From positions 456 to 64,455 of the forward strand of contig CAZQEY010000001.1 of assembly GCA_964592485.1 (NCBI GenBank): 64,000 nt of DNA. The letters run 5' to 3'. Origin of the DNA: an uncultured Planctomycetales bacterium. Its GTDB lineage: Bacteria > Omnitrophota > Gorgyraeia > Gygaellales > JAHJCI01. Below, piece after piece: positions 37,350-64,000 of this stretch (positions within the stretch are counted from its first letter, which is position 1; each line of letters starts with the position of its first letter). The notes beneath the pieces were generated by a model. That model did not search any database. It worked only from the letters and a program-made list of their open reading frames with translations, and had not been told where the DNA came from. Both the position numbers and the translations under genes were made by a program.

Positions 37350-38570
37350 CTAAGGGGTTGGAGATTGTTGTTTTTGAAATCCGTCTCGATCAAACCTTGC
37401 CACCACCCCTAAAAGAAACCAAAACAAAACGGATAATTGTAAGGAATAAAGTTGCGTATCGAAGAAGCTATGTACGAGAAAGCCGAAGATTGCACAAATA
37501 AACCCAAGCAACAATATCGAGGATTGCCGATTATCCTTAAATGTTCTTATTCCTTTATACAAAATTGAGCCCACAAATAAAAGAAAACTCAACAAGGCAA
37601 ATATCCCTGTCTCAGCCCACATTTGTAGATAGCAATTGTGCGCATATTGAACCAGTAAACCCTTGTTGGCATACTGGGGGAAATATTGCATAAATGTGCC
37701 CAAGCCTTTACCCAAAAAGGGATTCTCTTTGACTATTACCCAAGCGCCCTGCCAGATGACAAATCTATCTCTATCTCCACCGGCTTGAAAGGTAAACATT
37801 GCTCTTTCTCTCACCTCTGGTATCACAATTAGCATAAGTATAAAAATAGAAATTGCTAACAGAACAACCTTACTTTTACGTAATAAAAATAGCATTAATA
37901 ATCCAGCTGCCAAAAATCCTACCCAACCTCCACGAGAAAAGGTAAACAAAAGACATAAAGCCAATAAAGTTATTATAAAAAATAAGCCAACGCGATAAAT
38001 TATTCTTTTAATCATTGCTGATGAAAATAGAGTAATTGCTAAAGGTAAAACACAGATTAAATAAGCAGCAAAATCATTATAATGCTTAAAAGGGCCAGTA
38101 ATTGCATACAACACCCCCCTTACCTCAATTATCTGTCTTCCTCGTAAAAACTCAATCCCCAAGAATCGCTGAGAAAAAGCATCTATCCCGACAATTGCTC
38201 CTACAACTAAAAGAATAACTACAGCGTTTATTAGACGCTTGCGATTAGCCAAGATATCCTCGGCCATCAGAAAAATAAAAATATACTCTAACCATTTAAA
38301 AAATAATGCTTCTAAACTCTTCTTAAGATAAGGCCAGCTATTGAATAAAGAAAGCCCGCTAAAGACAACAAAGAGCAAGAGAAATAGATGGGTATAATTT
38401 TTAATAAATCTAAACTCTGGCTGAAGAATCTTCTTAACAACAAAAGCCAGAATCGCCAGACTAGCAAATACTTCGATTACTGCACTAGAAATAGGTATAA
38501 AGAATATTAACCCATACAAACAATACTCAAGCACTCTGTCAGTAATTAATATTATCCTCTCTTTTTTCAT
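37350..38570 (-). CDS. O-antigen ligase / Wzy_C-family polymerase-ligase membrane protein
   Basis: 10-12 TM segments with a periplasmic loop carrying the conserved Wzy_C-type region. 406 aa. Confidence 0.6.
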   Translation of the reverse strand: MKKERIILITDRVLEYCLYGLIFFIPISSAVIEVFASLAILAFVVKKILQPEFRFIKNYTHLFLLLFVVFSGLSLFNSWPYLKKSLEALFFKWLEYIFIFLMAEDILANRKRLINAVVILLVVGAIVGIDAFSQRFLGIEFLRGRQIIEVRGVLYAITGPFKHYNDFAAYLICVLPLAITLFSSAMIKRIIYRVGLFFIITLLALCLLFTFSRGGWVGFLAAGLLMLFLLRKSKVVLLAISIFILMLIVIPEVRERAMFTFQAGGDRDRFVIWQGAWVIVKENPFLGKGLGTFMQYFPQYANKGLLVQYAHNCYLQMWAETGIFALLSFLLFVGSILYKGIRTFKDNRQSSILLLGFICAIFGFLVHSFFDTQLYSLQLSVLFWFLLGVVARFDRDGFQKQQSPTP

Positions 38571-38578
38571 TCCTTCTC

Positions 38579-40021
38579 TTAATAAGCTCCTTTTCTTTTA
38601 AGCACTGCTGGTATTGTCCACAATAATATCCGGAGGTCAAGCCCGAAGGACCAATTATCAATATACCATAAATCCCATCTCATCCACTTATAGAAGCTCA
38701 AGTCGCTCCTTCCTCTTATTTGCCAAAGACAGGTAATTCCGGGTCTTACATTCAGCCGCCGCATCTGCCAGATATCGTATTTATCTACTTCATCAGGAGT
38801 TGGTGGCCGGGGCCCCACCAGACTCATATCCCCTTTTAAAACATTAATTAGTTGAGGTAATTCATCTAAGCTGTACCTTCGCAACCAGCGACCCAAGCGA
38901 GTAACACGCGGGTCATTTTTCATCTTAAATATCGGTCCCTTAACTTCGGACCTATGACGTAAAGCCTCCTTATGATTATCTGCGTCCCTAACCATTGAGC
39001 GAAACTTATAGAAATTAAATATCTTGCCTTTTTTACCACAGCGCAAACACTTATAAAACACCGGTCCGCGGCTGTCCAATTTAATTAAAAAGGCAGTAAT
39101 TACAAGCAAGGGCGTAAGTAATATCAAACTTATACCTGCCACCAACACATCCAACAATCTCTTAACAAACAACTCAGTTCCATGTAAGCCTGCATCAATA
39201 TAGCCAATCAAAGGAGCCATTCCAATATAGTCCAACTTCATCCTCCTAAAAGGAAACCCATTTGTTATAGATATCGTGCCCCATTTAGTCTCTAAAGAGG
39301 TAAAATTGTCTGCTAAAATTCGCACTGTTTTATTCAATTTTCTTCCCTTCGTCAAAATATCAGAAACTAACCTCCGCTCAGAAGGAATACTAACATATAT
39401 CTCATCAACAAAGTGCCTCTGAACCAAAGACTCTAAATCCTTAATCTCTCCTAGGATGTTATAACCTAACACCTTGCCATTTTTATTATCATCTAAAAAG
39501 CCAACGATTTTAAAACCTAAATAATGATTATTTATTATTTCTTCGGCTAAAGCACATCCTGCCTTACCCGCACCAACAATTAAAACATTAATATTGTAAT
39601 GGCCTTTAGCAATACGATATCTAATAATGATTCTTTTAATCATGCGCCAGAAAGACAAACTTAAAATCAAAAGCATTCCTGCCCAGATAAATACAAGGCG
39701 AGAAAAGAATTTCATCTGTAAGAAAAATATAGCCAATGCAGCCAAAATAGTTGCAAAAACCACACTCTTAATTACTCTCCCTATCTCTTTTGGTATAGTT
39801 AAAGAACGGTCTGTTGAATAAAGACGGTGATTGTTCAGGAAAAAGATAAGGCTTAATCCCCACAAAAAAAATAAAAGCCAGTAGTCATTAAAATATGGAA
39901 GATTATTTGGGATAAGGCCGCGGTTATATCTTAAGCAATAAGGCAGATAAAATGAAAGGCTAATCAAGAAGATGTCTATAACCAAATAGGCAAAATGTAA
40001 GTATCTTCTGTCCTGATACAT
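38579..40021 (-). CDS. Undecaprenyl-phosphate sugar phosphotransferase (WbaP/EpsL-like initiating transferase) with a CoA-binding domain
   Basis: Bacterial sugar-transferase C-terminus DELPQLINVLKGDMSLVGPRP, a Rossmann GAGKAG, and N-terminal TM segments. Confidence 0.85.
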   Translation of the reverse strand: MYQDRRYLHFAYLVIDIFLISLSFYLPYCLRYNRGLIPNNLPYFNDYWLLFFLWGLSLIFFLNNHRLYSTDRSLTIPKEIGRVIKSVVFATILAALAIFFLQMKFFSRLVFIWAGMLLILSLSFWRMIKRIIIRYRIAKGHYNINVLIVGAGKAGCALAEEIINNHYLGFKIVGFLDDNKNGKVLGYNILGEIKDLESLVQRHFVDEIYVSIPSERRLVSDILTKGRKLNKTVRILADNFTSLETKWGTISITNGFPFRRMKLDYIGMAPLIGYIDAGLHGTELFVKRLLDVLVAGISLILLTPLLVITAFLIKLDSRGPVFYKCLRCGKKGKIFNFYKFRSMVRDADNHKEALRHRSEVKGPIFKMKNDPRVTRLGRWLRRYSLDELPQLINVLKGDMSLVGPRPPTPDEVDKYDIWQMRRLNVRPGITCLWQIRGRSDLSFYKWMRWDLWYIDNWSFGLDLRILLWTIPAVLKRKGAY

Positions 40022-40188
40022 AAACTGAATTATATCATAACAATCTATTTCTCAGCAAGTAATAAAAATAGACTAAACCTTAACAAGTCACATCCTGCCA
40101 AAAGGCCTAGCCTCCTCTGATGGAATTTCTTTAGAAAGAATTAGGATTAATCTGCTAAAAATAAAAAGGATAAAATTTGCAATAGACC

Positions 40189-41340
40189 TTAATTATAAAG
40201 TTTTAAATAAGTTAAAAAGGCATTCAAACTACATACAATAAGGAAAGCGAGATAAAAAGCATTAAAGCTTAAATATAATGGTTTATTCTTCTTTAAAAAA
40301 CTTATACCCTTTACAATCATAAAAAAAACAAAAGGAGCAAAAAATAAGGTTATTCTCTCTCCTGTAAAGGGATACTTCTTTACTATTCCCAGGATGAACA
40401 ACTCTAAGAAGATAATTAGGGCCAAGGCATCTATATCCCACAGTCTAAATTTATTTTTTCTGATAGATTTAATTCCATAACCAAAAAGGGAGAATATAAA
40501 GAATGGAATTAAAAAAGAGGCAACCCTTCTAAAAAAGGCACTATTTCCAAACCACCACACCGATAGTCTTCTTAACCCCTCTGTAAAGGATTTTATGAAG
40601 CAGTAAAACGAATTTGTACATAGAAAGTAATCCTTCCAATATGAAAAAAGAGCCTGGTCAGATAAAGTGTACTTTAAGTCAAAAGAAAAAACAAAAATAA
40701 TGAATAAAAGGCACATGAAAGCATAGATAATCAGCAGAGTAAAAACTTTAGGGTTCTTCTTAACAATAAATAAAAAGTTATAAATGACTATCCAGAAAAT
40801 AAAAAAACTGCTATATGAAAAGAAAATAGTAAACGGCAATAGAAGCGTTGTGATAATAAAAAATTTTGATAGCCTTTTATCCAAATATTGTTTCTGATAA
40901 GCTAAATACAGGCAAAAAATTCCTATAACCAAAACATCCATAGAATAATGTTTCAATTCTGATGCATAATAACTCAAGTAATAACTACTGGCAAAGGAAA
41001 ATAAAGCAAGTAGAGAATGCCATTTATAAGGAAGCTCTCTTTTGTATATTTTTGCCCAAATAAAGAATGCAGAAAGCATACTTATCAAAGCAAAAAATCT
41101 TAAGGAAAGGGTATTGTAGTTAAATTTTTGTGAAAGATATTTTATCACAATAAGATAAATTCGTGGGAATGCCTGGCAATTTTTAAGAGGACCCAAAGTC
41201 TCACCAAGATTAAGACTCTTTATATTTTCTAAAATAAAATTCTCATCAAGCCAGAGCGGCCTTTGAGAAAAATAATGCAAAAGACATAAAAAGATAAACC
41301 AACTTATACAAGCAACAACTAAAAATTTATATATTTTCAT
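40189..41340 (-). CDS. Polytopic membrane protein (putative polymerase or GT-C-like)
   Basis: About 11 TM segments and no soluble catalytic motif. Set among glycan genes. Confidence 0.4.
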   Translation of the reverse strand: MKIYKFLVVACISWFIFLCLLHYFSQRPLWLDENFILENIKSLNLGETLGPLKNCQAFPRIYLIVIKYLSQKFNYNTLSLRFFALISMLSAFFIWAKIYKRELPYKWHSLLALFSFASSYYLSYYASELKHYSMDVLVIGIFCLYLAYQKQYLDKRLSKFFIITTLLLPFTIFFSYSSFFIFWIVIYNFLFIVKKNPKVFTLLIIYAFMCLLFIIFVFSFDLKYTLSDQALFSYWKDYFLCTNSFYCFIKSFTEGLRRLSVWWFGNSAFFRRVASFLIPFFIFSLFGYGIKSIRKNKFRLWDIDALALIIFLELFILGIVKKYPFTGERITLFFAPFVFFMIVKGISFLKKNKPLYLSFNAFYLAFLIVCSLNAFLTYLKLYN

Positions 41341-41378
41341 TTAGAGAAACTCGTAGACGTCCTATCCTCAATCAATGT

Positions 41379-42950
41379 TTAAAACATATTTATAATAAGC
41401 AAAATTATAAGGGCGAAAATAAGAGGAAATCTTATACTCCTGTATCGTTTCTGTTTATCTATTGCTATTGCCTTAACTACTCTGCGAAACCCGACTGCTC
41501 CTAAATAGAATAATGCTAATGCTTGAGGCATCATATAACGCATAGAGCTTCCGGAATCTGCGCCACCATATATATATCCATAATATAAAAAAACAGAAAA
41601 TACCAAACAAACGATAGGAACCAAATGAATAAATTCTATTTTTCTAAACGCCATCAAGATAAACGCCAAAGACAAAATGCTAAAGTAAATAGCATCGGGG
41701 CAATTAGCAGATAAATCTGAGATTACATTTTTCAACATAGTAAAATTAATTTGAAAAAAATTATGTTGAACCACAGCAGCATATATAGCATTATAAAAGG
41801 GATTTAGATTAATATTATAAACAAAAGTAAATAATTTCCATATAAAAAATGGCACGACAGATATAATTAAAGCCAATAAAGAAAGAGAGAGTCTGTTAGG
41901 TCTCATTTTATATTTAAGATTAAATAAAACAATAAAAATAATTGAAAATAAAAAAGTAAAATAACTAAGAGGAGACTTACTCAATGATAAAAGTCCGATG
42001 CAAAAACTCATGAGTATTAGGTCTATTGTTCTGATGTTGGGTTGATCAGTGAGCTTTTTGATTTCATAAGTAACTAACAAAAAGAAAACCATACAGATAC
42101 CTTCGCCATATATTACTCTATAGCACAATTGGCCGATCCAACTTAGATTATTAAAAGCGCCGAATAAGGCAAGATAAAAGAACAAAAAACACCATCGCTT
42201 AGACCTTATTTGGCACAGAAATAGGAATAAGGTAATGATGATAACGATGGGCATAAAAAAAATAGTCTCAGTAAAATGGGTGCCAGAAAGTTTAGCAGGC
42301 AAAACAGATATAAAAGGTATGCCTAATGAGTGAACTTCTCCTCCAGGATAACCCGCAAGATGACCTTTTAGAACATTTAACATAACCATATTTTTGGAGG
42401 CTATAAACCATAGACCAGTTTCATCACCATAGGCAATTCTTTGCAGATTAAAATTGTATTCAAAAAAATAGAAGAAGCTATGAACAAGCCAGGCAAAGAT
42501 TAAAATATCCACCATCGTAAACCTGTAATTTTTTATAGGCAATAATTTTACTTTTGATTTATTAGTTATAACTCTATACACGATTGGAATTAATAAAATA
42601 ACTACACAAAATTGAATGAAGAAAGTATCTGCGATTTTAAAAACAAGTAAATTTAATAGTGTTAAAAAATAAAGCAGGAAAAGAAACCCGATGTATAATA
42701 TTGGGGCTGATAAAATTTTAAATAACTTTGAGTAGGCCAAAGATAGAAAAAGAATTATAAGATAGGTTACCAAGCTAATAATAAAACATTTCCATAAGTA
42801 AGTGCTCTGGAGATTTTGCAATTCAAGCCTCATTAGGATTTGGACAAAGCGTTTGCAAATCTTTGCAGCTATAATAATGGAAACTAAATTAAATATTATT
42901 CCTTGCCACTTAATGCCAGATAATCTTTGCTTTAACCCTAAATCTTTCAT
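41379..42950 (-). CDS. Polytopic membrane protein (putative GT-C fold glycosyltransferase / ArnT-PMT-like)
   Basis: 523 aa with more than 12 TM segments. Assignment is by locus context only. Confidence 0.4.
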   Translation of the reverse strand: MKDLGLKQRLSGIKWQGIIFNLVSIIIAAKICKRFVQILMRLELQNLQSTYLWKCFIISLVTYLIILFLSLAYSKLFKILSAPILYIGFLFLLYFLTLLNLLVFKIADTFFIQFCVVILLIPIVYRVITNKSKVKLLPIKNYRFTMVDILIFAWLVHSFFYFFEYNFNLQRIAYGDETGLWFIASKNMVMLNVLKGHLAGYPGGEVHSLGIPFISVLPAKLSGTHFTETIFFMPIVIIITLFLFLCQIRSKRWCFLFFYLALFGAFNNLSWIGQLCYRVIYGEGICMVFFLLVTYEIKKLTDQPNIRTIDLILMSFCIGLLSLSKSPLSYFTFLFSIIFIVLFNLKYKMRPNRLSLSLLALIISVVPFFIWKLFTFVYNINLNPFYNAIYAAVVQHNFFQINFTMLKNVISDLSANCPDAIYFSILSLAFILMAFRKIEFIHLVPIVCLVFSVFLYYGYIYGGADSGSSMRYMMPQALALFYLGAVGFRRVVKAIAIDKQKRYRSIRFPLIFALIILLIINMF

Positions 42951-44699: not shown

Positions 44700-44764
44700 C
44701 TTTACTCTTTATTTTATTAATTATAATATATAAAACAAATCTATTCAACTAAAATGAAATAAAT

Positions 44765-45544: not shown

Positions 45545-45551
45545 TTTAACG

Positions 45552-53253: not shown

Positions 53254-53258
53254 GATAT

Positions 53259-56413: not shown

Positions 56414-56442
56414 AATTTTATAAGAAAATTAGGCCCCAATTG

Positions 56443-57240
56443 CTACTCCTTGGAAACTACAAAGAAAAGGCATCCTCCTTCTTCACTCTCCTTATCATAG
56501 TATCGCCTGATAAAATTCATAAATACTTTGGGCCTGTTAAATTTAGGGAATAATTTCCATCTATTTATAGTTCTCTTGTATATAAAGGAACTCAGAGAAG
56601 AAACCAAAAAAAAACCCATTATATGAAGCAATTGGGGGGACAAATAAGGGTATACTTCCTTTATTGTCAAACCTGCCTTGGTTATCCTCATTTTCCATTC
56701 ATCTGCAGATAAAACATAATTATGACAAAAAAGATAATCAAGTAATTTACTGCTCAGCTTTAGCTTAATCCCCAGTTTATTAAGCATAATATCACTTAAG
56801 GACATCGCTTCCGAGAATAAGGAAGTTACCACACTTAAATATGCTCGCCCACCAGGAGTCAATACCCTGCGTATCTCACTCAAAGTACGATCCAGATCCT
56901 GAACATGCTCCAGAACACAATTGGAAATAACTGTTCTAAAATAAGATGAGCTGAAGGGAAGATCCTCTGCTTCTCTACAATAGACTTCTTTGTAAGCCCT
57001 AAGCTTTCTTGCCTTATATACATTCTTCAGATCAATATCAACCCCAACATCAATCTGTCCCTCAAAAAGGGTGCTGGCAAAAATACCTTCTCCAGAACCA
57101 ATATCTAAAATTGGCCTTTCATACACATAACGAGAAAACAATTCACACTCTTTAGCACGAATTATGAACAACGAAACTGGAGCAAGCCTGCCATAAGTGT
57201 TGAAGAAATCCTCATTTTTTGGATATAGGCAATCTGTCAT
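56443..57240 (-). CDS. Class I SAM-dependent methyltransferase
   Basis: ILDIGSGEGIFASTL (motif I) and VISNCVLEHV (motif II-III region). Confidence 0.65.
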   Translation of the reverse strand: MTDCLYPKNEDFFNTYGRLAPVSLFIIRAKECELFSRYVYERPILDIGSGEGIFASTLFEGQIDVGVDIDLKNVYKARKLRAYKEVYCREAEDLPFSSSYFRTVISNCVLEHVQDLDRTLSEIRRVLTPGGRAYLSVVTSLFSEAMSLSDIMLNKLGIKLKLSSKLLDYLFCHNYVLSADEWKMRITKAGLTIKEVYPYLSPQLLHIMGFFLVSSLSSFIYKRTINRWKLFPKFNRPKVFMNFIRRYYDKESEEGGCLFFVVSKE

Positions 57241-57245
57241 TTAGT

Positions 57246-58577: not shown

Positions 58578-59284
58578 GCCAATGTAGTGCCAAAGGGAAA
58601 ATCAAATCTTCTTAAAAAATATTTTTCCATACAGAGAATCTTATTAAGAACCGCGTTGATTGGTTTTGCTAATTTAAAGAAATCATCGCTCTGGGAACTG
58701 CACACAAGTATCTTTCGTTTAAACCACAACGGCAAGACAAAAGCCGGTTGAAAATAAGTAGCTCGCAGCACTCTAAAACCTGCTTTCTCTAATATAGTTG
58801 TTAACCTTTTTCGATTATAACGGCGTTTATGGCCATATAATTCATCATGCTTGCCGTATAATGCATTGTAAGCCGGAACAGATACCAATAACCATCCCGC
58901 AGAGTTAAGAATACTCTTTATACCAACGATAAGACCGTCCTCATCATCCACGTGCTCAAGTACATCGAGTAAAGTAACAAGGTCAAAAGAGTTCTCTTTA
59001 AACGGTAATTTTATAGCGTCAGCAACTACTGCTTTAACATCTTGATTGCGTTTGCAAAGAATATTTAATATATCGTGATTCAAATCAATTCCAAAAATAT
59101 CAATCTTAAACTGTTTTACATAGCCAAGAAACACCCCGCTGCCACAACCAATATCCAACATTCTCTTAGCAAATAATCCAGCGCAAGATTGTTCTAATAA
59201 ATCACTCAGAACAACATACTTGCTCCTCAGCCACCAATAATTGTGGCCTAAGCGGTCATATTTAAGCAATTTCTCAATTTCCAT
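58556..59284 (-). CDS. Class I SAM-dependent methyltransferase
   Basis: MLDIGCGSGVFLGY (motif I) and LLDVLEHV. Confidence 0.7.
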   Translation of the reverse strand: MEIEKLLKYDRLGHNYWWLRSKYVVLSDLLEQSCAGLFAKRMLDIGCGSGVFLGYVKQFKIDIFGIDLNHDILNILCKRNQDVKAVVADAIKLPFKENSFDLVTLLDVLEHVDDEDGLIVGIKSILNSAGWLLVSVPAYNALYGKHDELYGHKRRYNRKRLTTILEKAGFRVLRATYFQPAFVLPLWFKRKILVCSSQSDDFFKLAKPINAVLNKILCMEKYFLRRFDFPFGTTLACLAQKS

Positions 59285-60263
59285 AATTACTATTTTCTCT
59301 GGGGAATTCTACGAACTCCCTATCTATACCTATAACTTCATCAATAACATAAACAGGGCGATTCTTTATCTCATCAAAAATGGACCCGATATATTCGCCT
59401 ATCATTCCCAACATAATCAACTGCATTCCGCCAAGAAAACTTATAATCACTACTATTGTTGCAAAACCACTAAAAGGGGTATCAAAAATTATGTAACGTA
59501 AAATATTTATAATGCCAAAGGCAAAACTTAACATGGATATAACAATACCAACAAATATAGAAACCCTCAAAGGCACTTTTGAAAAAGATATAAAACCAGA
59601 GAGCGCAAGTTTCAGGAGTCTGAACAAGCTGTATTTCGGGTCCCCTTTCTCACGTGCAGGACGGCTATACTCTATTCCAATAAATTTTCCCCCTGCCCAA
59701 CAACGCAGTCCCCTTATAAAGGGATTGTGCTCTTTGAACGATATAAGTAAATCAACAGTATTTCGATTTATTACTGAAAAATCTCCTGTATCAAGAGGAA
59801 TTTCAAAGGAGGCCATTTTATTCAACATTCGGTAAAAAGTAAAGTATGCTAACCTTTTGAAAAAGTTTTCTTTACGCCTTTTGCGTATGGCATATACAAC
59901 ATCATAACCTTGCTCACACTTTTTAAAGAATTCTGGAAGAAGTTCTGGGGGGTCCTGACCATCAGCATCTAAAACCGCAACCATTCTTCCTGATGACCCT
60001 CTCAATCCTGCTATAATAGCTATTTGATGACCGAAGTTGCGCGAAAATCTAATACCCTTAATATTTGGATTGCGTCTATTGCATTCTAGAATAATCTGCC
60101 AACTGCCATCATTGCTGCCATCATTAACCAGGATGATCTCATATGTCTCTCCTAGCGCAGATAATACCCTTTCAGTCCTATTTATAATCTCAAGTAATGT
60201 CTCTTGCTCATTAAATACCGGAATCACAACTGAATAAACAATCTCACTCTTTGCCGAAATCAT
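59274..60263 (-). CDS. Glycosyltransferase family 2: polyprenyl-phosphate sugar synthase (ArnC/GtrB/DPM1-like) with C-terminal TM helices
   Basis: SVVIPVFNE...VNDGSNDGS, DAD at LDADGQD, and two C-terminal TM segments. Confidence 0.8.
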   Translation of the reverse strand: MISAKSEIVYSVVIPVFNEQETLLEIINRTERVLSALGETYEIILVNDGSNDGSWQIILECNRRNPNIKGIRFSRNFGHQIAIIAGLRGSSGRMVAVLDADGQDPPELLPEFFKKCEQGYDVVYAIRKRRKENFFKRLAYFTFYRMLNKMASFEIPLDTGDFSVINRNTVDLLISFKEHNPFIRGLRCWAGGKFIGIEYSRPAREKGDPKYSLFRLLKLALSGFISFSKVPLRVSIFVGIVISMLSFAFGIINILRYIIFDTPFSGFATIVVIISFLGGMQLIMLGMIGEYIGSIFDEIKNRPVYVIDEVIGIDREFVEFPRENSNYGN

Positions 60264-60298
60264 GCTCCTTTTCTCCTTGAGATATACTTAACTTCAGA

Positions 60299-61351
60299 TT
60301 AATAAAAACTCACATGGATAAGTCTTTTTTCTTTAGCAAAGGAGTCCCTGAAACCAATTGAGTTATCACAATATGCACAACCACCAAGCCCTTTTCTGCT
60401 GTTGAGCATACTTTTACGGAATTTATTAAATTTCTCTCCCTTCCATATTGCATCAAAACTGCTTTCACTTATATTCCCAAAAGTAGGTACTCCTAATTGA
60501 TTAAGACAGCAAGGAAGCACCGCTCCATTGCTCTGAACCGCCGGAGACAACCATAATCCCAAACAATGGTTTCTTATCTTGCCTGGTTGTTTTGAAGAAT
60601 ATACATGGATTCTGGTTTTATTTGGATCATCCAGCCCCTCAAAAATGTAATTAAGACGCACATAACGCGGGTGTAGCCCTATCCCCAGTTGTTTAGTAAA
60701 TTTTCTAACATTTTTTATAGACAAACTACTTTTGTCAGTTATTAACAATCGTGAACAAATATAAGGCGTTTTGGAATGCAATTTCTTTTTAGCGTTCTGT
60801 ATCTTTTTAATATTATCGATTACATATGAAAAGTTTCCTTTTCGGTGATATTTTTCGTAATCCTCCTGGTTTATTCCCGAGATAGAAAAATACAATGTAT
60901 CAATACCGGTTTTTACAATTTTTTCTCCCCAGTCATCAGGTGTAGGGAAACTACCGTTCGTACTTGTCCATATAATTATTTTTTTTTCATTGGCATAGGA
61001 CATCATCTCAAGTATATTCTTATTCAAAAATGACTCTCCACTCATCTGAAGCATTATCATTATTGCGCTGTCACTTATTTGGTCAACTAACCTCTTGTAC
61101 ATTTCAATATCCATTGCCTTGGGAATTAATTTCTTAGACAAAGACGGCACCCAGCAACCTTCACAAGCAAGATTACAAAAATTGGCTGCCTCCACCCACA
61201 TGGCTACAGGACCATACTTTACTTGCGTTATCTTCAACTTAGCAAATAATAAATTAACCAAAAGAGCCCTTATCTTTTTAAATGATATTTTACCGCTGAA
61301 GATATTCCGGTAAAATAGTTTAGTAAAAAATAAGGCACTTCTTACATCCAT
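60299..61351 (-). CDS. Radical SAM enzyme with a SPASM/twitch-like C-terminus
   Basis: FCNLACEGCW (CxxxCxxC) and C-terminal CCLNQ...CAYCDN. Confidence 0.7.
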   Translation of the reverse strand: MDVRSALFFTKLFYRNIFSGKISFKKIRALLVNLLFAKLKITQVKYGPVAMWVEAANFCNLACEGCWVPSLSKKLIPKAMDIEMYKRLVDQISDSAIMIMLQMSGESFLNKNILEMMSYANEKKIIIWTSTNGSFPTPDDWGEKIVKTGIDTLYFSISGINQEDYEKYHRKGNFSYVIDNIKKIQNAKKKLHSKTPYICSRLLITDKSSLSIKNVRKFTKQLGIGLHPRYVRLNYIFEGLDDPNKTRIHVYSSKQPGKIRNHCLGLWLSPAVQSNGAVLPCCLNQLGVPTFGNISESSFDAIWKGEKFNKFRKSMLNSRKGLGGCAYCDNSIGFRDSFAKEKRLIHVSFY

Positions 61352-61355
61352 CCCC

Positions 61356-62816
61356 TCAACCCTTCTTGCGCGAAGACCTATTTAAAAAATATCCTTTGAA
61401 AATTGTGTATTTCATAAAGGACAGGCCTCCTCGAAATACCTTTATAAATAATTTTTTGCTCTTCATCATTTTAAAAATATAGTAAATGATTATACGTAGC
61501 CGTAAGTAAAATACCCTGTAAGCTTTTTTATGGTAATATAATAATTCATCATAGGTTAATCCATAAGGGACGAAATTATGCGGAGATGTCATAACCGCCT
61601 TTCTCCAATCAGGATCGAATTCACCATATTGTTTGGCTAATTTAGAAGCCAGAGTGCCTGGAAGCGGAGTAAAACCATTAATATGAAAATCATCCATCGG
61701 GACATTCTTAATAAACTTAAGTGTCTCTTCAATTGTCTCTTTGGTTTCACCAAAATTACCAAGCATAAAAAGCCCCTTTATTTTTAATCCAGCTTGATGG
61801 GTAATCTTAAGAGCCCGCTCAATCTGTTCAACCTTTATCCCTTTATTGATGCTATCCAGTATTTTCTGAGAACCACTCTCACAACCATAACCTACCTGCC
61901 AGCACCCTGCCTCTTTAAGTATCTTTAACATCTCTGGGTCAACCATATCAACTCGACCCATTATAGAAAAAGTAATATCTATATTTTTTTCTTTTAGTAT
62001 CCGGCAAAAGTCCTTAACCCTCTTCTTAAATGCGGGAAAGTTATCATCCTCAAAGAAGATATCTTTTATTCCATAATTCACGGTTAGATGCTCAATCATG
62101 CCTATTATGTATTCAGCACTATAACCCCTGATTTTATTTCCAAACATACTCTTTTCGCAAAAGACACACTTCCCCGGGCATCCCCTTGAGGTTACTAACA
62201 GTGTTGCGGGCGAACGGTGTAGGCTATCTGCTGCAGGTTGATAATATTTCACTAAATCGGGTAGAAGATCCCATGCAGGAAATGGAAGTTTATCAAGGTC
62301 TTCTATAAATGCCCTTCTGCCAGTAAAAACAATCCTGCCATTATTTCTAAATATTATACCTTTGCAATTATTTAAATCAGAATCATTCTCAAAACATTTA
62401 AGTAATTCTAGAATAGTAATTTCCCCCTCGCCCACAACCCCTACATCAAACTCAGGAAAGACAGACATGGTTTCATAGGGACATGATGTAACATGGGCAC
62501 CACCAATAACTATCTTTATCCTGCTACCCTTTTGCCTTAGCATCCTGGCAATGTAAGCCGCATTGTAAATGGTGGTAGTTGTGGAAGTTATGCCAAGTAT
62601 GTCAGGAGATTCGCCTATTATTTTCTCAAGCGTTGAATCATGGCTTAACCTTAAAGCAGCAGCATCAAGAATCGTTGTCAGATAACCATTTTCCCGGGTT
62701 ATAGCAGCCAATAAAGCAATTCCCAGTGGAGGCAACTCACTGCCTCCTTCTGATAAGTCACCATATAATTCTTCCGCTGAAAACGGAGGATTTAAAAACA
62801 TTATTTTACTTTTCAT
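61356..62816 (-). CDS. B12-binding-domain radical SAM enzyme (class B)
   Basis: N-terminal B12-binding-like Rossmann (ILGITSTTTTIYNAAYIARML) then RGCPGKCVFCE. Confidence 0.75.
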   Translation of the reverse strand: MKSKIMFLNPPFSAEELYGDLSEGGSELPPLGIALLAAITRENGYLTTILDAAALRLSHDSTLEKIIGESPDILGITSTTTTIYNAAYIARMLRQKGSRIKIVIGGAHVTSCPYETMSVFPEFDVGVVGEGEITILELLKCFENDSDLNNCKGIIFRNNGRIVFTGRRAFIEDLDKLPFPAWDLLPDLVKYYQPAADSLHRSPATLLVTSRGCPGKCVFCEKSMFGNKIRGYSAEYIIGMIEHLTVNYGIKDIFFEDDNFPAFKKRVKDFCRILKEKNIDITFSIMGRVDMVDPEMLKILKEAGCWQVGYGCESGSQKILDSINKGIKVEQIERALKITHQAGLKIKGLFMLGNFGETKETIEETLKFIKNVPMDDFHINGFTPLPGTLASKLAKQYGEFDPDWRKAVMTSPHNFVPYGLTYDELLYYHKKAYRVFYLRLRIIIYYIFKMMKSKKLFIKVFRGGLSFMKYTIFKGYFLNRSSRKKG

Positions 62817-63669
62817 TTTCTACTTTTGACCTCAGATTTAGAAATGACTTATTAATCAGATTTTGATACCTTTGTCTCATTACAATAGTTTTAATTGGAA
62901 ACATGGATGAACTTTTGTTTATCCAAAAAAACTGCAAAGGCTTTTTTATCCTTAGGAGGTAAACAAATTTCAATATTTCAAAAGTTAAAAGATCAAAATT
63001 ACCGCATTCTGCATATCCTTTCAGGAAATTATCTTCTAAGGATTCAACTATTTTATTATCTCCACCCAACATTCCCGAAATGATTATTCTAGAACAGAAA
63101 CGAGACAAATCATCAATCTGATAAGCAAAACACGAATGTTCAAAATCGATAAAACATATACGACCCTCATTGTAAAGAATATTTTGGTAACAAAAATCAC
63201 CGTGTATGAAACCATAATTAGATTTGAATTTAATCTGTTGCGAAAATGCCTTAAACCATTGATAAATATTTTTAATTTGTCTTCTGCTGAGATAAATTCC
63301 TCCCCACTCCTGCAGATGTTTGTCTAATTTAGTGGTTATAAAGTCTTTCAAAGAACAACTAATTCTAGGGATGTGCTCAGATATATGGCTAAAATCTATA
63401 TAATGTAACTTGGCTAAGGCCTGACCAATCTCCTGCATCAGTTTTAACAATACATCATCATCTGTCTTCAAAAAATTAATATTATCCCCTTGTAGCCTTT
63501 TTAACTTTAATAGATTATTCTTCCAAGAAACAGCTTCTAGAACATTTATTGTACTATTATTTTTCAAATATTTAATAATCTCGTATTCCCTGTGCGCATA
63601 AACAGTATGTTTGTAAAAATATTCATTACTAGTCTGAATCTTAGTGAAATTTTCTGTATTTTTATTCAT
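62806..63669 (-). CDS. Aminoglycoside/choline-kinase-like phosphotransferase
   Basis: Brenner motif FIHGDFCYQNILY and the downstream IDFE metal-binding motif. Confidence 0.55.
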   Translation of the reverse strand: MNKNTENFTKIQTSNEYFYKHTVYAHREYEIIKYLKNNSTINVLEAVSWKNNLLKLKRLQGDNINFLKTDDDVLLKLMQEIGQALAKLHYIDFSHISEHIPRISCSLKDFITTKLDKHLQEWGGIYLSRRQIKNIYQWFKAFSQQIKFKSNYGFIHGDFCYQNILYNEGRICFIDFEHSCFAYQIDDLSRFCSRIIISGMLGGDNKIVESLEDNFLKGYAECGNFDLLTFEILKFVYLLRIKKPLQFFWINKSSSMFPIKTIVMRQRYQNLINKSFLNLRSKVENEK

Positions 63670-64000
63670 ACTGGAATCTTGTCTATTTGGGCGTTTCTAT
63701 AACCAAGGGGATTTATTCTTTTTCCTTTACGTTTTTCTAATTTCCTGACTTGGCTATAAGATGGATATGAGTATACCCTGCCAAGAGAAAACTCTACCGG
63801 GATTGTTCTGATATTGCCACTGCAAAACATATCTAATGCTTCCTCTACTAATTTGTAATCGATAGAAAGTGCCTTCTCAAAGAGTGTCTTTGTATCGTCG
63901 TGTTCTCCAATTCTAACTTGCTCTTGAGTCAATAAAGCTCCGTGGTCAATCTTAGAATCAATTCGGTGGACTGAAACTCCCATATAATCCTCATCGTTAT
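63666..64000 (-). CDS. Formyltransferase-family protein (sugar N-formyltransferase / Fmt-like), partial; N-terminus lies beyond the window end
   Basis: GVSVHRIDSKIDHGALL matches the formyl-transferase catalytic region (H...D). The frame stays open upstream of the track's Met to position 64000. Confidence 0.5.
   Translation of the reverse strand, partial: NDEDYMGVSVHRIDSKIDHGALLTQEQVRIGEHDDTKTLFEKALSIDYKLVEEALDMFCSGNIRTIPVEFSLGRVYSYPSYSQVRKLEKRKGKRINPLGYRNAQIDKIPV

What the first reader, a model, noticed from the sequence alone, without database searches (positions are those of the whole stretch)
37350..64000. Glycan locus with four radical-SAM enzymes (two B12-dependent) and four to five methyltransferases
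Beyond the usual set (two WbaP-like primases, ligase, WecB, GT4 and GT2 enzymes, GT-C-like membrane proteins), the locus encodes two class-B (B12-binding) radical-SAM proteins, two SPASM-type radical-SAM proteins, several SAM methyltransferases, a kinase and a formyltransferase. Class-B radical-SAM enzymes typically C-methylate unactivated carbons (GenK or Fom3-like). Their number here suggests a heavily C-methylated, formylated or phosphorylated sugar or lipid-linked glycan of novel structure.
Basis: partly seen in the sequence, partly recalled or inferred. Interest (0 to 1): 0.6.

Follow-up and report, generated by a model that had tools for sequence, protein, structure and literature searches.

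The report
Radical-SAM-rich surface glycan gene cassette
An uncultured Omnitrophota bacterium carries a surface-sugar gene cassette with four radical enzymes built in, and two of them belong to large, unstudied enzyme families that sit in sugar-coat gene clusters of hundreds of other microbes, pointing to sugar chemistry nobody has yet described.

Summary
Window 37,218-64,000 (minus strand) is one co-directional, tightly packed, low-GC polysaccharide cassette of an Omnitrophota bacterium. It has 21 genes plus a cut formyltransferase, including four radical-SAM genes (two with B12 domains), four SAM methyltransferases and a kinase. None of the four reaches the curated cut-off of any cofactor or named family.

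The 671-aa enzyme carries all three sequence signatures of TokK/ThnK/CysS iterative cobalamin methylases. Among its relatives with enough flank, 38 of 53 metagenome loci lie in sugar pathways, often between NeuB and NeuC.

The 486-aa enzyme belongs to a separate family present in bacteria, CPR and DPANN archaea. Its closest curated families are HpnJ and BchE, both non-methylases. In 38 of 76 genomes a GT2 gene lies within three genes of it, often with DUF2304 and GT-C genes, methyltransferases (sometimes fused) and further radical-SAM genes.

In the window it is followed by a twitch-type radical-SAM gene, a GtrB/ArnC-type transferase and a protein modelled with a GT-C fold.

Best reading: radical tailoring of a sugar that is delivered through a polyprenyl-phosphate/GT-C route. 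C-methylation is well supported only for the 671-aa enzyme. Such multi-radical-SAM glycan loci are common in uncultured lineages but uncharacterised.

The parts
63666..64000 (-). 3' part of a sugar N-formyltransferase-like gene. The gene runs off the window end.
   Evidence: The frame is open to base 63998. It matches Formyl_trans_N positions 133-180 of 181, E 8.7e-6. It overlaps the kinase start by 4 bp.
62806..63669 (-). Small-molecule kinase, APH/choline-kinase fold, 287 aa
   Evidence: PF01636 at 47.3 bits and PF01633 at 41 bits. The only solved relative is amicoumacin kinase, E 5e-4. No homologue was found in the 84 related loci searched.
61356..62816 (-). Class-B (B12-domain) radical-SAM enzyme, 486 aa, from an uncharacterised HpnJ/BchE-like family
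   Evidence: B12-binding 81.5 bits and Radical_SAM 92.3 bits. CX3CX2C at residue 213. HpnJ 211 vs cut-off 578; BchE 197 vs 481. Closest solved structure is 9ccb (MCR glutamine C-methyltransferase), E 3e-23. At least 1968 homologues and at least 593 genome loci.
60299..61351 (-). Radical-SAM enzyme with a twitch/SPASM-type C-terminal domain, 350 aa
   Evidence: Radical_SAM 62.5 bits and SPASM 47.6 bits. The C-terminal domain aligns to the BtrN twitch domain, E 2.9e-8. Cysteines at 263, 281, 282, 325 and 328. The same gene order (B12-rSAM, then SPASM rSAM, then GT2) is seen in L171, L057 and L037.
59274..60263 (-). GtrB/ArnC-type polyprenyl-phosphate glycosyltransferase (GT2 with two C-terminal transmembrane helices), 329 aa
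   Evidence: PDB 5ekp GtrB E 1.8e-75; ArnC 9hwj E 5e-52. PgfS 243 bits and ArnC 197 bits, both below cut-off. Transmembrane helices at 224-242 and 258-276.
58556..59284 (-). Class I SAM methyltransferase, 242 aa
   Evidence: Methyltransf_23/11/25. The best related-locus hit is a methyltransferase in L027, E 2e-40.
57246..58577 (-). Radical-SAM enzyme with a 4-Cys C-terminal region, 443 aa (the NCBI gene call is 430 aa)
   Evidence: Radical_SAM 93.3 bits and no SPASM hit. Closest solved structure is BlsE, cytosylglucuronate decarboxylase, E 3e-10. Cysteines at 285, 303, 340 and 343. Alternative start.
56443..57240 (-). Class I SAM methyltransferase, 265 aa
   Evidence: Methyltransf_11/23/31/25.
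54356..56413 (-). GT-C-fold membrane glycosyltransferase candidate, 685 aa (DUF6798-related)
   Evidence: No Pfam hit. Small family: 89 representatives among 1.84 billion proteins. 17 of 38 aligned sequences (the window protein plus 37 homologues) hit DUF6798. AlphaFold model built with alignment A2 has pLDDT 91.4. The four best PDB matches are PglB (two entries), ArnT and the yeast OST complex, probability 0.97-1.0 but TM-score only 0.24-0.45.
53259..54053 (-). Class I SAM methyltransferase, 264 aa
   Evidence: Methyltransf_25/31/11.
51271..53253 (-). TIGR04326-like 'surface carbohydrate biosynthesis protein', 660 aa, with a TagF-like C-terminal part
   Evidence: TIGR04326 at 98 bits (cut-off 250). 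Weak Glyphos_transf hit, E 5.8e-4. No solved relative.
50042..51274 (-). GT4 glycosyltransferase, 410 aa
   Evidence: Glycos_transf_1 at 135.5 bits and Glyco_transf_4.
48774..50021 (-). GT4 glycosyltransferase, 415 aa
   Evidence: Glycos_transf_1 at 114.8 bits.
46624..48639 (-). TokK/CysS-type cobalamin-dependent radical-SAM methylase candidate, 671 aa
   Evidence: TokK 7kdx E 2.3e-38 and CysS 9n1b E 6.6e-30. W72 aligns to TokK W76, C209-X3-C213-X2-C216-X-W218 is present, and D255-A256-N257 aligns to TokK D250-A251-N252. All are invariant in 27 family members. These are the signatures listed in PMC9204698. KedN5 family 140 bits vs cut-off 700.
45552..46526 (-). Methyltransf_24-family SAM methyltransferase, 324 aa
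   Evidence: PF13578 at 40.1 bits. No NCBIfam or PDB relative.
44765..45544 (-). WecG/TagA/CpsF-family glycosyltransferase, 259 aa
   Evidence: PF03808 at 212 bits. TIGR00696 at 166.6 bits, above its cut-off of 69.
43245..44699 (-). Polyprenyl glycosylphosphotransferase (WbaP/EPS type), 484 aa
   Evidence: Bac_transf 223 bits plus CoA_binding_3. TIGR03025 at 426.6 bits, above its cut-off of 295.6.
41379..42950 (-). Polytopic membrane protein, 523 aa, about 13 transmembrane helices, unassigned
   Evidence: No Pfam hit even at E<=5. No homologue in the related loci. Hydropathy. GC 30%.
40189..41340 (-). Polytopic membrane protein, 383 aa, about 9 transmembrane helices, unassigned
   Evidence: No Pfam hit. 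Hydropathy. GC 29%. Has an N-terminal 'LWLDE' motif; I recall it as typical of GT39/GT83-type GT-C enzymes, which is from memory and was not tested.
38579..40021 (-). Second polyprenyl glycosylphosphotransferase, 480 aa
   Evidence: Bac_transf 230.6 bits. TIGR03025 at 423.3 bits, above cut-off. 46% identical to the first transferase.
37350..38570 (-). Wzy_C-domain protein (O-antigen ligase or polymerase type), 406 aa
   Evidence: PF04932 at 78.9 bits. IctB 108, exosortase-linked ligase 68 and RfaL 38 bits, all below cut-off.
37218..37248 (-). Terminator-like hairpin that marks the 3' end of the cassette
   Evidence: 12-bp stem followed by a T-rich tail, 102 bp after the last stop codon.

Best explanation
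The region is the downstream ~27 kb of a single co-directional, low-GC surface-polysaccharide cassette in an Omnitrophota (diderm) genome. The four radical-SAM enzymes are sugar-tailoring enzymes of that cassette. The cassette reads as two blocks.

Block A (63998 to 54356), gene order:
- formyltransferase
- kinase
- 486-aa B12-domain radical-SAM enzyme
- twitch-type radical-SAM enzyme
- GtrB/ArnC-type polyprenyl-phosphate glycosyltransferase
- methyltransferase
- second twitch-like radical-SAM enzyme
- methyltransferase
- GT-C-fold transferase

Proposed mechanism for block A (inferred):
- One special monosaccharide is built and loaded on undecaprenyl phosphate by the GtrB-like enzyme.
- The radical enzymes and methyltransferases modify it at the cytoplasmic face. 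The substrate is either the nucleotide sugar or the lipid-linked sugar.
- The modified sugar is flipped and then transferred by the GT-C enzyme onto the glycan outside the membrane. This follows the Gtr, Arn, GacI/J/K/L and CsbB/YfhO systems.
- The twitch-type enzymes most likely oxidise, epimerise or dehydrate a sugar carbon, as BtrN and BlsE do.
- The 486-aa enzyme either C-methylates or rearranges the sugar.

Block B (54053 to 37350) assembles the backbone. It holds a methyltransferase, a TIGR04326-like protein, two GT4, a Methyltransf_24 enzyme, a TagA/WecG transferase, two phosphoglycosyl transferases, two unassigned membrane proteins and a Wzy_C ligase or polymerase. It also holds the 671-aa TokK/CysS-type enzyme. 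I predict this enzyme uses methylcobalamin to add one or more methyl groups to an unactivated sp3 carbon of a sugar or of a sugar substituent. One possibility is extension of an O-methyl or N-acyl group to ethyl or isopropyl, as CysS and TokK do on their own substrates.

Shown here: gene content, operon-like packing, family assignments, diagnostic motifs, the GT-C fold and recurrent co-location in other genomes. Inferred: substrates, order of steps and product.

My sub-confidences:
- The radical-SAM enzymes act in glycan synthesis: 0.8.
- The 671-aa enzyme is a Cbl-dependent C-methylase: 0.6.
- Block A works through a Und-P-sugar/GT-C route: 0.6.
- The 486-aa enzyme is a methylase: 0.4.
For: Packing.
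- 21 co-directional genes. 14 of 20 junctions are 38 bp or shorter or overlap.
- A terminator-like hairpin closes the locus.
- GC is 29-38% against 43.5% in the adjacent housekeeping genes.

671-aa enzyme.
- It aligns with TokK over residues 61-471.
- It keeps the three signatures that PMC9204698 lists for iterative methylases. These are invariant across 27 homologues.
- Its relatives lie in sugar pathways. Examples: L083 (three tandem paralogues with DegT, SDR, deacetylase and GT2), L085 and L087 (nonulosonic-acid genes), L088 and L089 (dTDP-sugar genes with TylC3-type C-methyltransferase domains).
- 38 of 53 usable metagenome loci have glycan-type neighbours: NeuB in 14, CMP-nonulosonate synthetase in 12, NeuC in 11.

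486-aa enzyme.
- At least 593 relatives were found in species-representative genomes of many bacterial phyla, CPR and DPANN archaea.
- Among 76 loci, a GT2 gene lies within 3 genes in 38 and within 10 kb in 46. A methyltransferase lies within 3 genes in 21, and 5 more anchors are at least 600 aa long, two of them confirmed methyltransferase fusions (P0125, P0142). Extra radical-SAM genes lie within 3 genes in 29.
- Other recurrent neighbours are DUF2304 (the GacJ type; bioRxiv 10.1101/180810), YfhO- or PMT_2-like GT-C proteins, YdjC, SDR, DegT and nucleotidyltransferases.
- The closest homologues (73-76% identity) show the same pattern. L171 has the order B12-rSAM, SPASM-rSAM, B12-rSAM, GT2.

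Other parts of block A.
- The GT2 protein matches GtrB at E 2e-75 and has two C-terminal transmembrane helices.
- The 685-aa protein models at pLDDT 91, and its best structural matches are all GT-C enzymes.

Host: the fumarase gene's named best hits are all Omnitrophota, at 64-75% identity. An AsmA-like gene lies upstream.
Against: - No member of either B12 family has been characterised, and I found no paper on them.
- The 486-aa family scores best against HpnJ and BchE, which are described as non-methylases.
- One relative of the 671-aa enzyme (L090, 45% identity) sits among UbiD decarboxylase and molybdenum hydroxylase genes, not sugar genes. 15 of 53 metagenome loci showed no glycan neighbour with my limited reference set.
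- The visible part of the cassette has no nucleotide-sugar genes (no SDR, aminotransferase or nucleotidyltransferase) and no recognisable flippase or ABC exporter. The substrate sugar is therefore unknown, and the 5' part of the locus lies outside the window.
- The GT-C assignment rests on a model with low TM-scores (0.24-0.45) to the solved structures.
- The kinase and the 383- and 523-aa membrane proteins have no informative relatives.
- The neighbourhood statistics use my own simple ORF calls and cluster labels, and have no matched random control.
Confidence: 0.6

Rival explanations
1. The 486-aa B12-domain enzyme is not a methylase. It is an HpnJ-like rearrangement enzyme that contracts or otherwise rearranges a lipid-linked amino sugar into a cyclitol- or carbasugar-like unit before the GT-C transfer step.
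For: - HpnJ is the top curated match for the window protein (211 bits) and for 8 of 10 relatives tested (110-221 bits), closely followed by BchE.
- Both are described as non-methylases, and HpnJ acts on a lipid-linked glucosamine (PMC9204698).
- In 6-7 related loci the enzyme sits with a GT2 and a YdjC-family gene. From my own knowledge of hopanoid genetics, this is the same trio of families as HpnI/HpnK/HpnJ.
Against: - All scores are far below the HpnJ cut-off of 578, so this is a different family.
- The window has no YdjC gene and no hopanoid genes.
- Methyltransferase neighbours and fusions fit methyl chemistry at least as well.
- The same review says HpnJ co-clusters with the methylases Fom3 and MoeK5 at stringent thresholds, so likeness to HpnJ does not exclude methylation.
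Confidence: 0.2
2. The kinase and some of the methyltransferases do not tailor a sugar precursor. They cap the finished chain with a phosphate or methyl-phosphate terminator that sets chain length, as WbdD does in E. coli O9a (comparison from my own knowledge).
For: - The cassette encodes a protein-kinase-like or APH-fold kinase plus several class I methyltransferases.
- No Wzx-type flippase is visible. That would fit an ABC-transporter pathway encoded upstream of the window.
Against: - The kinase gene overlaps both the formyltransferase gene and the B12 radical-SAM gene, which places it in the precursor block.
- Its only solved relative is a small-molecule kinase.
- The two WbaP-type initiating transferases and the Wzy_C protein fit a Wzy-type pathway better.
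- No coiled-coil or WbdD-like fusion is present.
Confidence: 0.12
3. The radical-SAM/SPASM enzymes mature a ribosomal peptide or a protein, and their place in the glycan cassette reflects protein glycosylation or coincidence.
For: - SPASM-domain enzymes are best known as peptide maturases.
- Many weak NCBIfam hits are to RiPP maturases.
- The GT2 resembles PgfS, which belongs to a protein-glycosylation system.
Against: - No small precursor ORF lies next to any radical-SAM gene, and the junctions are too tight to hold one.
- No peptidase or RiPP exporter is present.
- Both accessory domains have 4-5 cysteines like BtrN, a small-molecule enzyme.
- All RiPP-family scores are far below cut-off.
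Confidence: 0.05
4. The radical-SAM enzymes modify lipids or cofactors (polyprenol, ether lipids, hopanoid-like lipids, corrinoids), and the locus is a mosaic of unrelated operons.
For: - Weak similarity to lipid-modifying families: ladderane B12-rSAM 112 bits, Tes 53 bits, HpnR 66 bits.
- GC varies inside the cassette from 29 to 38%, and there are two paralogous initiating transferases, which suggests assembly from sub-cassettes.
- One relative of the 671-aa enzyme sits in a non-glycan context.
Against: - Overlapping genes tie the radical-SAM genes to the GT2, methyltransferase and kinase genes.
- The same associations recur in dozens of unrelated genomes across both prokaryotic domains.
- No lipid or cofactor pathway genes are present in the cassette.
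- No curated cut-off is met.
Confidence: 0.05

Closest known systems
TokK / ThnK / CysS (and the KedN5 family): cobalamin-dependent radical-SAM iterative C-methylases of antibiotic pathways
   Same: The 671-aa protein is homologous over the cobalamin and radical-SAM domains: TokK E 2e-38, CysS E 7e-30. It keeps the Trp below the cobalt (W72), CX3CX2C-X-Trp (W218) and the Asp-Ala-Asn motif that replaces GGE.
   Different: It sits in a cell-surface polysaccharide cassette, not an antibiotic cluster. It scores 140 bits against the KedN5-family cut-off of 700. Its relatives lie mostly in nucleotide-sugar and nonulosonic-acid pathways. The substrate and the number of methyl transfers are unknown.
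HpnJ (with HpnI and HpnK) of hopanoid side-chain synthesis, and BchE
   Same: These are the top curated matches of the 486-aa family. HpnJ acts on a lipid-linked amino sugar (PMC9204698). Some relatives sit next to a GT2 and a YdjC-family gene.
   Different: Scores are about one third of the cut-offs. No hopanoid or chlorophyll genes are present. The usual neighbours are GacI/GacJ-like Und-P sugar synthases and GT-C transferases. The family also occurs in CPR bacteria and DPANN archaea.
Three-component extracytoplasmic glycosylation systems: GtrA/B/V, ArnC/ArnT, GacI/J/K/L, CsbB/YfhO, PgfS/PgfM
   Same: There is a GtrB/ArnC-type GT2 (E 2e-75 to GtrB) and a GT-C-fold protein in one operon-like block. 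A formyltransferase lies upstream, as in the Arn pathway. Related loci have DUF2304 (GacJ-like), YfhO and PMT_2 proteins.
   Different: No known system of this kind includes radical-SAM enzymes; here three lie in the same block. No GtrA-type flippase was recognised. The GT-C protein belongs to a tiny DUF6798-related family.
Sugar-active radical-SAM enzymes of antibiotic pathways: BtrN, BlsE, AprD4, GenK/GenD1, MoeK5, Fom3
   Same: The BtrN twitch domain matches the 350-aa protein. BlsE is the best solved match of the 443-aa protein. AprD4 matches the 486-aa protein at E 2e-22. They share the principle of radical chemistry on a carbohydrate carbon.
   Different: All matches are distant and mostly limited to the core or accessory domain. 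Likeness to GenK, MoeK5 and Fom3 could not be tested with the tools. The pathway here is primary cell-envelope synthesis rather than secondary metabolism.
Hypervariable polysaccharide cassettes of Omnitrophota
   Same: This is a low-GC polysaccharide cassette next to housekeeping genes and close to a defence and mobile island. That matches the description in bioRxiv 10.64898/2026.06.07.730766.
   Different: In the passages I searched, that preprint mentions radical SAM only as a Pfam domain within giant proteins, not as genes of polysaccharide cassettes.

Membership tests
Radical SAM superfamily (all four proteins) | CX3CX2C cluster-binding motif and a PF04055 hit above the gathering score | tested here: met
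   Motifs at residues 209, 213, 45 and 59. PF04055 scores are 32.8, 92.3, 93.3 and 62.5 bits against a cut-off of 29.5.
Class B (cobalamin-binding) radical SAM | N-terminal Rossmann-type B12-binding domain | tested here: met
   486 aa: PF02310 at 81.5 bits, above the cut-off of 32.1. 671 aa: PF02310 at 28.3 bits, below cut-off, but residues 61-200 align with the TokK cobalamin domain.
Class B (cobalamin-binding) radical SAM | Actual binding and use of cobalamin | not testable with these tools
   This needs reconstituted protein. AprD4 shows that the domain alone does not prove cobalamin use (my own knowledge of AprD4).
TokK/ThnK/CysS-type iterative methylases (671-aa protein) | A Trp that blocks the lower cobalt ligand (TokK W76) | tested here: met
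   W72 aligns with TokK W76 and is invariant in 27 homologues. The feature is taken from PMC9204698.
TokK/ThnK/CysS-type iterative methylases (671-aa protein) | Cys-X3-Cys-X2-Cys-X-Trp (TokK W215), and Asp-Ala-Asn in place of GGE (TokK 250-252) | tested here: met
   C209, C213, C216, N217, W218 and D255-A256-N257 are aligned to TokK and invariant in the family.
TokK/ThnK/CysS-type iterative methylases (671-aa protein) | Methyl transfer to an sp3 carbon, once or repeatedly | not testable with these tools
   This needs an enzyme assay.
KedN5 family (NF033712) | Score at or above the curated cut-off of 700 bits | tested here: not met
   139.7 bits. It is a distant relative only.
HpnJ (TIGR03471) | Score at or above the curated cut-off of 577.6 bits | tested here: not met
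   211 bits for the window protein. Scores are 110-221 bits for ten relatives from all context types.
HpnJ (TIGR03471) | Hopanoid gene context (squalene-hopene cyclase, HpnH, HpnI, HpnK) | tested here: not met
   None among the ORFs of the window that were scanned.
BchE (TIGR02026) | Score at or above the curated cut-off of 481 bits | tested here: not met
   197 bits.
   No model or solved structure of either appeared in the libraries searched. It needs a sequence-similarity network or a tree.
SPASM / twitch accessory domain | PF13186 hit | tested here: met
   350 aa: 47.6 bits, above the cut-off of 21.5. The 443-aa protein has no hit even at E<=5.
SPASM / twitch accessory domain | Full seven-cysteine SPASM motif for two auxiliary clusters | tested here: not met
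   There are 5 C-terminal cysteines in the 350-aa protein and 4 in the 443-aa protein. The best solved match is the one-cluster twitch domain of BtrN.
GtrB/ArnC-type polyprenyl-phosphate glycosyltransferase | GT2 catalytic domain followed by two C-terminal transmembrane helices, with full-length homology to GtrB | tested here: met
   5ekp E 1.8e-75 over residues 6-314. Transmembrane helices at 224-242 and 258-276. The ArnC equivalog cut-off is not met: 197 vs 529 bits.
GT-C glycosyltransferase (685-aa protein) | GT-C membrane fold with a periplasmic C-terminal domain | tested here: met
   The model has pLDDT 91.4. The four best PDB matches are PglB (two entries), ArnT and the yeast OST complex, with probability 0.97-1.0 but TM-scores of only 0.24-0.45.
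GT-C glycosyltransferase (685-aa protein) | Catalytic acidic residue in the first external loop | tested here: inconclusive
   The conserved acidic motif is at E266/D268/D269, and R147, H180 and E333 are invariant. Their position in the fold was not mapped.
GT-C glycosyltransferase (383- and 523-aa proteins) | Any detectable GT-C family or fold | tested here: inconclusive
   No Pfam hit at E<=5 and no homologue in the related loci.
WbaP/EPS-type polyprenyl glycosylphosphotransferase | TIGR03025 score above its cut-off of 295.55 bits | tested here: met
   423.3 and 426.6 bits.
WecG/TagA/CpsF glycosyltransferase | TIGR00696 and PF03808 scores above cut-off | tested here: met
   166.6 bits vs 69, and 212.4 bits vs 27.4. 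This is not the WecB 2-epimerase; there is no Epimerase_2 hit.
O-antigen ligase (WaaL/RfaL) | Wzy_C domain | tested here: met
   78.9 bits vs a cut-off of 31.7.
O-antigen ligase (WaaL/RfaL) | An equivalog-level match that separates ligase from polymerase | tested here: not met
   RfaL 38 bits vs 277, IctB 108 vs 366, exosortase-linked ligase 68 vs 188.

The most novel reading that the evidence does not exclude
Two large, uncharacterised clades of B12-domain radical-SAM enzymes form a widespread and so far unrecognised layer of cell-surface glycan chemistry in bacteria, CPR and DPANN archaea.
- The ~480-aa HpnJ/BchE-like clade would work on polyprenyl-phosphate-linked sugars, between a GtrB/GacI-type synthase and a GT-C transferase.
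- The ~670-aa TokK-like clade would alkylate nucleotide sugars and nonulosonic acids.

Their products would be C-alkylated or ring-rearranged sugars not yet seen in any glycan. The Omnitrophota cassette combines both clades with two twitch-type radical enzymes.
Probability: 0.3. Interest if true: 0.8.

Novelty: new variant of a known kind. Interest (0 to 1): 0.55.

Why it matters
- Radical-SAM tailoring of sugars is known almost only from antibiotic pathways such as gentamicin, butirosin, apramycin, blasticidin and moenomycin.
- If these enzymes tailor envelope glycans, surface polysaccharides of many uncultured lineages would contain sugar modifications made at unactivated carbons. Ordinary SAM methyltransferases cannot make such modifications.
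- This would bear on glycan structure databases, on phage and host recognition in episymbiotic Omnitrophota, CPR and DPANN cells, and on biomarker chemistry.
- It also gives enzymologists two well-defined, very large families with a clear genomic handle on the substrate class. One has the full TokK signature. The other is regularly paired with, or fused to, a class I methyltransferase.
- The nonulosonic-acid-linked TokK-like enzymes, which sit between NeuB and NeuC, are the easiest entry point. That pathway can be reconstituted in vitro.

Tried and rejected
- Reading beyond base 64000 was not possible. The exact proteins lie on an NCBI contig of 240,875 bp that the contig index did not return. 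The only retrievable copy, a Logan contig of 12.9 kb, ends in the same formyltransferase gene. The genome is not among the species representatives; the best hit there is 60% identical.
- Direct tblastn of the window proteins against 80 related loci showed that only the GT2, methyltransferase and radical-SAM genes recur. The kinase, formyltransferase, TIGR04326-like protein and membrane proteins do not. The cassette as a whole is therefore not conserved; only modules are.
- A single-sequence AlphaFold model of the 685-aa protein was useless (pLDDT 44). It worked once 37 homologues were added.
- Literature searches for B12 radical-SAM enzymes in O-antigen, polysaccharide, nonulosonic-acid or undecaprenyl contexts found nothing relevant.
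- I considered cofactor enzymes (MoaA, NirJ, AhbD, BzaD, BchE, tungsten-cofactor maturase) and rejected them. All score far below cut-off.
- I considered a RiPP cluster and rejected it. There is no precursor ORF next to the radical-SAM genes.
- I considered true HpnJ and rejected it. Scores are uniformly about 200 bits across all context classes.
- PDB searches for the TIGR04326-like protein and the Methyltransf_24 protein found nothing.

Full report
**What is in the window**

Every ORF of at least 100 aa between 37350 and 64000 that is not nested inside a larger ORF lies on the minus strand. Pfam, NCBIfam and PDB sequence searches give the following order in the direction of transcription.

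| Coordinates | Product |
|---|---|
| 63666 to beyond 64000 | formyltransferase, cut by the window edge |
| 62806-63669 | APH/choline-kinase-fold kinase |
| 61356-62816 | B12-domain radical-SAM enzyme, 486 aa |
| 60299-61351 | radical-SAM/SPASM enzyme, 350 aa |
| 59274-60263 | GT2, 329 aa |
| 58556-59284 | class I methyltransferase |
| 57246-58577 | radical-SAM enzyme, 443 aa |
| 56443-57240 | class I methyltransferase |
| 54356-56413 | 685-aa membrane protein |
| 53259-54053 | class I methyltransferase |
| 51271-53253 | TIGR04326-like protein |
| 50042-51274 and 48774-50021 | two GT4 glycosyltransferases |
| 46624-48639 | B12-type radical-SAM enzyme, 671 aa |
| 45552-46526 | Methyltransf_24 protein |
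| 44765-45544 | WecG/TagA glycosyltransferase |
| 43245-44699 | phosphoglycosyl transferase |
| 41379-42950 and 40189-41340 | two unassigned polytopic membrane proteins |
| 38579-40021 | second phosphoglycosyl transferase |
| 37350-38570 | Wzy_C-domain protein |

Fourteen of the twenty junctions between the complete genes are 38 bp or shorter or overlap. A 12-bp-stem terminator-like hairpin at 37248-37218 follows the last gene. The cassette has 29-38% GC, against 43.5% in the housekeeping genes directly downstream.

- 'WecB' is the WecG/TagA glycosyltransferase family, not the epimerase.
- Only one protein hits the SPASM model, and both non-B12 enzymes have 4-5 C-terminal cysteines. That is twitch-like as in BtrN.
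- Only one of the three membrane proteins could be shown to be GT-C-like.

**Host and setting**

- The genes at 22-37 kb are bacterial housekeeping genes. They include SmpB with a tmRNA gene, QueC, a QueE-like radical-SAM gene, fumarase, SufBD, RNase PH, a Ham1-family gene and an AsmA-like gene.
- The fumarase alpha subunit's named best hits are all Candidatus Omnitrophota, at 64-75% identity.
- The first 21 kb hold a DISARM-like defence system, a cytosine methylase with a nicking endonuclease, and a serine recombinase.
- A recent preprint describes polysaccharide cassettes as hypervariable loci in Omnitrophota (10.64898/2026.06.07.730766). That fits the low GC found here.
- The exact proteins are on an NCBI contig of 240,875 bp and on a 12.9-kb Logan contig from SRR14802574. 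I could not read past the window end.

**The 671-aa enzyme**

- Its best solved relatives are TokK (E 2.3e-38, residues 61-471) and CysS (E 6.6e-30).
- A review of cobalamin-dependent radical-SAM enzymes lists three signatures of the TokK/ThnK/CysS/Swb9/PctJ iterative methylases (PMC9204698). These are a Trp that blocks the lower cobalt position (TokK W76), Cys-X3-Cys-X2-Cys-X-Trp (W215), and Asp250-Ala251-Asn252 in place of GGE.
- In the HMMER alignment the window protein has W72, C209/C213/C216-N-W218 and D255-A256-N257 at exactly these positions. All are invariant in an alignment of 27 family members.
- It is not a member of the curated KedN5 family (140 bits against a cut-off of 700).
- The family is large: at least 1150 clusters at E<=1e-10 and at least 592 metagenome loci.
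- Close relatives sit in sugar pathways:
  - L083: three tandem paralogues with DegT, SDR, deacetylase, methyltransferases and a short GT2.
  - L085 and L087: NeuB, NeuC and CMP-nonulosonate synthetases.
  - L088 and L089: dTDP-sugar genes that include TylC3-type C-methyltransferase domains.
- I labelled the ORFs of 80 metagenome loci against a small reference set built from these annotated neighbours.
  - 38 of the 53 loci with enough flank had glycan-type neighbours. NeuB occurred in 14, CMP-nonulosonate synthetase in 12 and NeuC in 11.
  - In several loci the enzyme lies between NeuB and NeuC.
  - This is a lower bound, because unlabelled ORFs were not annotated.
- One relative (L090) sits among UbiD and molybdenum hydroxylase genes, so the family is not exclusively glycan-linked.

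**The 486-aa enzyme**

- It has a strong B12-binding domain and a strong radical-SAM core.
- The best curated matches are HpnJ (211 bits, cut-off 578) and BchE (197 bits, cut-off 481). The best solved matches are 9ccb, the MCR glutamine C-methyltransferase, and AprD4.
- Ten relatives from different gene contexts give the same profile (HpnJ 110-221 bits). This is one distinct family, not HpnJ.
- It is conserved at 45-76% identity across bacteria, CPR and DPANN archaea.
- I fetched 80 species-representative loci, called ORFs, clustered the neighbours and annotated the cluster representatives.

| Neighbour of the 486-aa family (76 loci with the anchor called) | Loci |
|---|---|
| GT2 within three genes | 38 |
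| GT2 within 10 kb | 46 |
| class I methyltransferase within three genes | 21 |
| anchor protein of at least 600 aa (possible methyltransferase fusion) | 5 |
| further radical-SAM gene within three genes | 29 |
| three or more radical-SAM genes in the locus | 20 |

- Two homologues found separately, P0125 and P0142, are confirmed methyltransferase fusions.
- Other recurrent neighbours are DUF2304, YfhO- and PMT_2-like GT-C proteins, YdjC, SDR dehydratases, DegT aminotransferases, nucleotidyltransferases and AsnB.
- DUF2304 is the GacJ family. GacJ partners the Und-P-GlcNAc synthase GacI in streptococci (bioRxiv 10.1101/180810).
- The closest homologues show the same picture. L086 and L087 have a formyltransferase-like gene, a GNAT, a methyltransferase, an SDR, the B12 enzyme, a methyltransferase, a short GT2 and a 560-590-aa protein with no Pfam match. 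L171 has the order B12-rSAM, B12-rSAM, SPASM-rSAM, B12-rSAM, GT2.
- The window's order (B12-rSAM, SPASM-rSAM, GT2) is thus a recurring unit.

**The transferases of block A**

- The 329-aa GT2 is a GtrB/ArnC-type polyprenyl-phosphate glycosyltransferase. It matches GtrB at E 1.8e-75 and ArnC at E 5e-52, and has two C-terminal transmembrane helices.
- The 685-aa protein has no Pfam match and few relatives: 89 representatives in 1.84 billion proteins. 17 of 38 aligned sequences (the window protein plus 37 homologues) hit DUF6798.
- With those homologues AlphaFold gave a confident model (pLDDT 91.4). Its four best PDB matches are all GT-C enzymes: PglB twice, ArnT and the yeast OST complex. Probabilities are 0.97-1.0 but TM-scores are low, at 0.24-0.45.
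- A polyprenyl-phosphate sugar synthase together with a GT-C transferase is the hallmark of the Gtr, Arn, Gac and CsbB/YfhO type of extracytoplasmic glycosylation.

**Most likely mechanism**

Block A makes one unusual sugar. The sugar is loaded on undecaprenyl phosphate and modified by the radical enzymes and methyltransferases. The substrate of those modifications is either the nucleotide sugar or the lipid-linked sugar. The sugar is then flipped, and the GT-C enzyme adds it to the polymer.

Enzymes that modify lipid-linked monosaccharides are known. ArnD deformylates Und-P-Ara4FN and DprE1/E2 epimerise decaprenyl-P-ribose (my own knowledge). HpnJ acts on a lipid-linked glucosamine (PMC9204698). 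The same review notes that HpnJ co-clusters with Fom3 and MoeK5 at stringent thresholds. From my own knowledge, MoeK5 methylates a sugar carried on a phospho-lipid. I could not test the relationship to MoeK5.

Block B builds the backbone. The two phosphoglycosyl transferases may reflect two initiating sugars or a composite cassette. Block B also contains the TokK-type enzyme, for which C-methylation of a sugar or of a sugar substituent is the best-supported prediction. The steps, the substrates and the product are all inferences.

**Rivals**

1. The 486-aa enzyme could be an HpnJ-like rearrangement enzyme rather than a methylase.
2. The kinase and methyltransferases could be a WbdD-like chain terminator.
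3. The enzymes could mature a peptide. This is unlikely because there is no precursor ORF and the accessory domains are twitch-like.
4. The enzymes could act on lipids or cofactors in a mosaic locus. This is unlikely given the gene overlaps and the recurrence of the same associations in unrelated genomes.

**Novelty and score**

I found no paper on B12-type radical-SAM enzymes in envelope glycan loci. Two recent reviews of the enzyme class do not mention glycans or polysaccharides.

The cassette itself is one example of something common in uncultured lineages, so it is not unique. The kind is uncharacterised, however, and the TokK-signature clade in nonulosonic-acid pathways gives a directly testable entry point.

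I rate it a new variant of a known kind (radical-SAM sugar tailoring moved into envelope glycan assembly), with interest 0.55.

Noticed in passing
window 7154-18472 (minus strand): A DISARM-like defence island. It holds DrmA-like (13791-16850), DrmB-like (12148-13794) and DrmC-like (11321-12160) genes, an unassigned 803-aa protein (8944-11355) and a type II methyltransferase (7154-8458). It also holds a C5 cytosine methylase (17549-18472) with a type II nicking-endonuclease-like gene (16816-17532).
   Followed up: partly
window 19249-20622 (+) and 21344-21414 (-): A large serine recombinase lies next to a tRNA gene, at the border between the defence island and the housekeeping genes. This may be an integration site.
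   Followed up: no
window 37218-37248 and 36992-37022 (minus strand): The terminator-like hairpin after the cassette has a near-copy inside the VanZ-like ORF (36621-37145). The intergenic piece may be a duplicated fragment of that gene.
   Followed up: no
window 34390-35763 (minus strand): A single 457-aa ORF joins a Maf-like domain (residues 11-193) to a peptidase M48 domain (residues 257-436).
   Followed up: no
window 32138-32545 and 32683-33138 (minus strand): A tmRNA gene (181 bits) lies directly downstream of SmpB.
   Followed up: no
L129, L133, L134, L151 (metagenome loci); also L087 18531-20606: TokK-like B12 radical-SAM genes sit between NeuB and NeuC inside legionaminic-acid-type gene sets (acetyltransferase, NeuB, rSAM, NeuC, nucleotidyltransferase, CMP-synthetase). 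This suggests a radical modification of a nonulosonic acid.
   Followed up: partly
P0125 (L087 10001-12124), P0142, and long anchors in L017, L041, L080, L082: Relatives of the 486-aa enzyme are fused to a class I methyltransferase domain (700-785 aa). This points to coupled steps on one substrate.
   Followed up: partly
L083 5689-12016: Three tandem TokK-like paralogues (683, 669 and 671 aa) lie next to sulfate-activation and sulfatase genes in the closest relative (63% identity) of the window's 671-aa enzyme.
   Followed up: no
L090 8001-11451: A 45%-identical relative of the 671-aa enzyme overlaps a UbiD-family decarboxylase gene and follows molybdenum hydroxylase genes in a Chloroflexi genome. 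This is a non-glycan context for the same family.
   Followed up: no
L027, L060, L081, L010, L050, L058: Relatives of the 486-aa enzyme are flanked by a short GT2, a methyltransferase and a YdjC-family gene. These are the same three protein families as HpnI/HpnJ/HpnK, but outside hopanoid clusters.
   Followed up: partly
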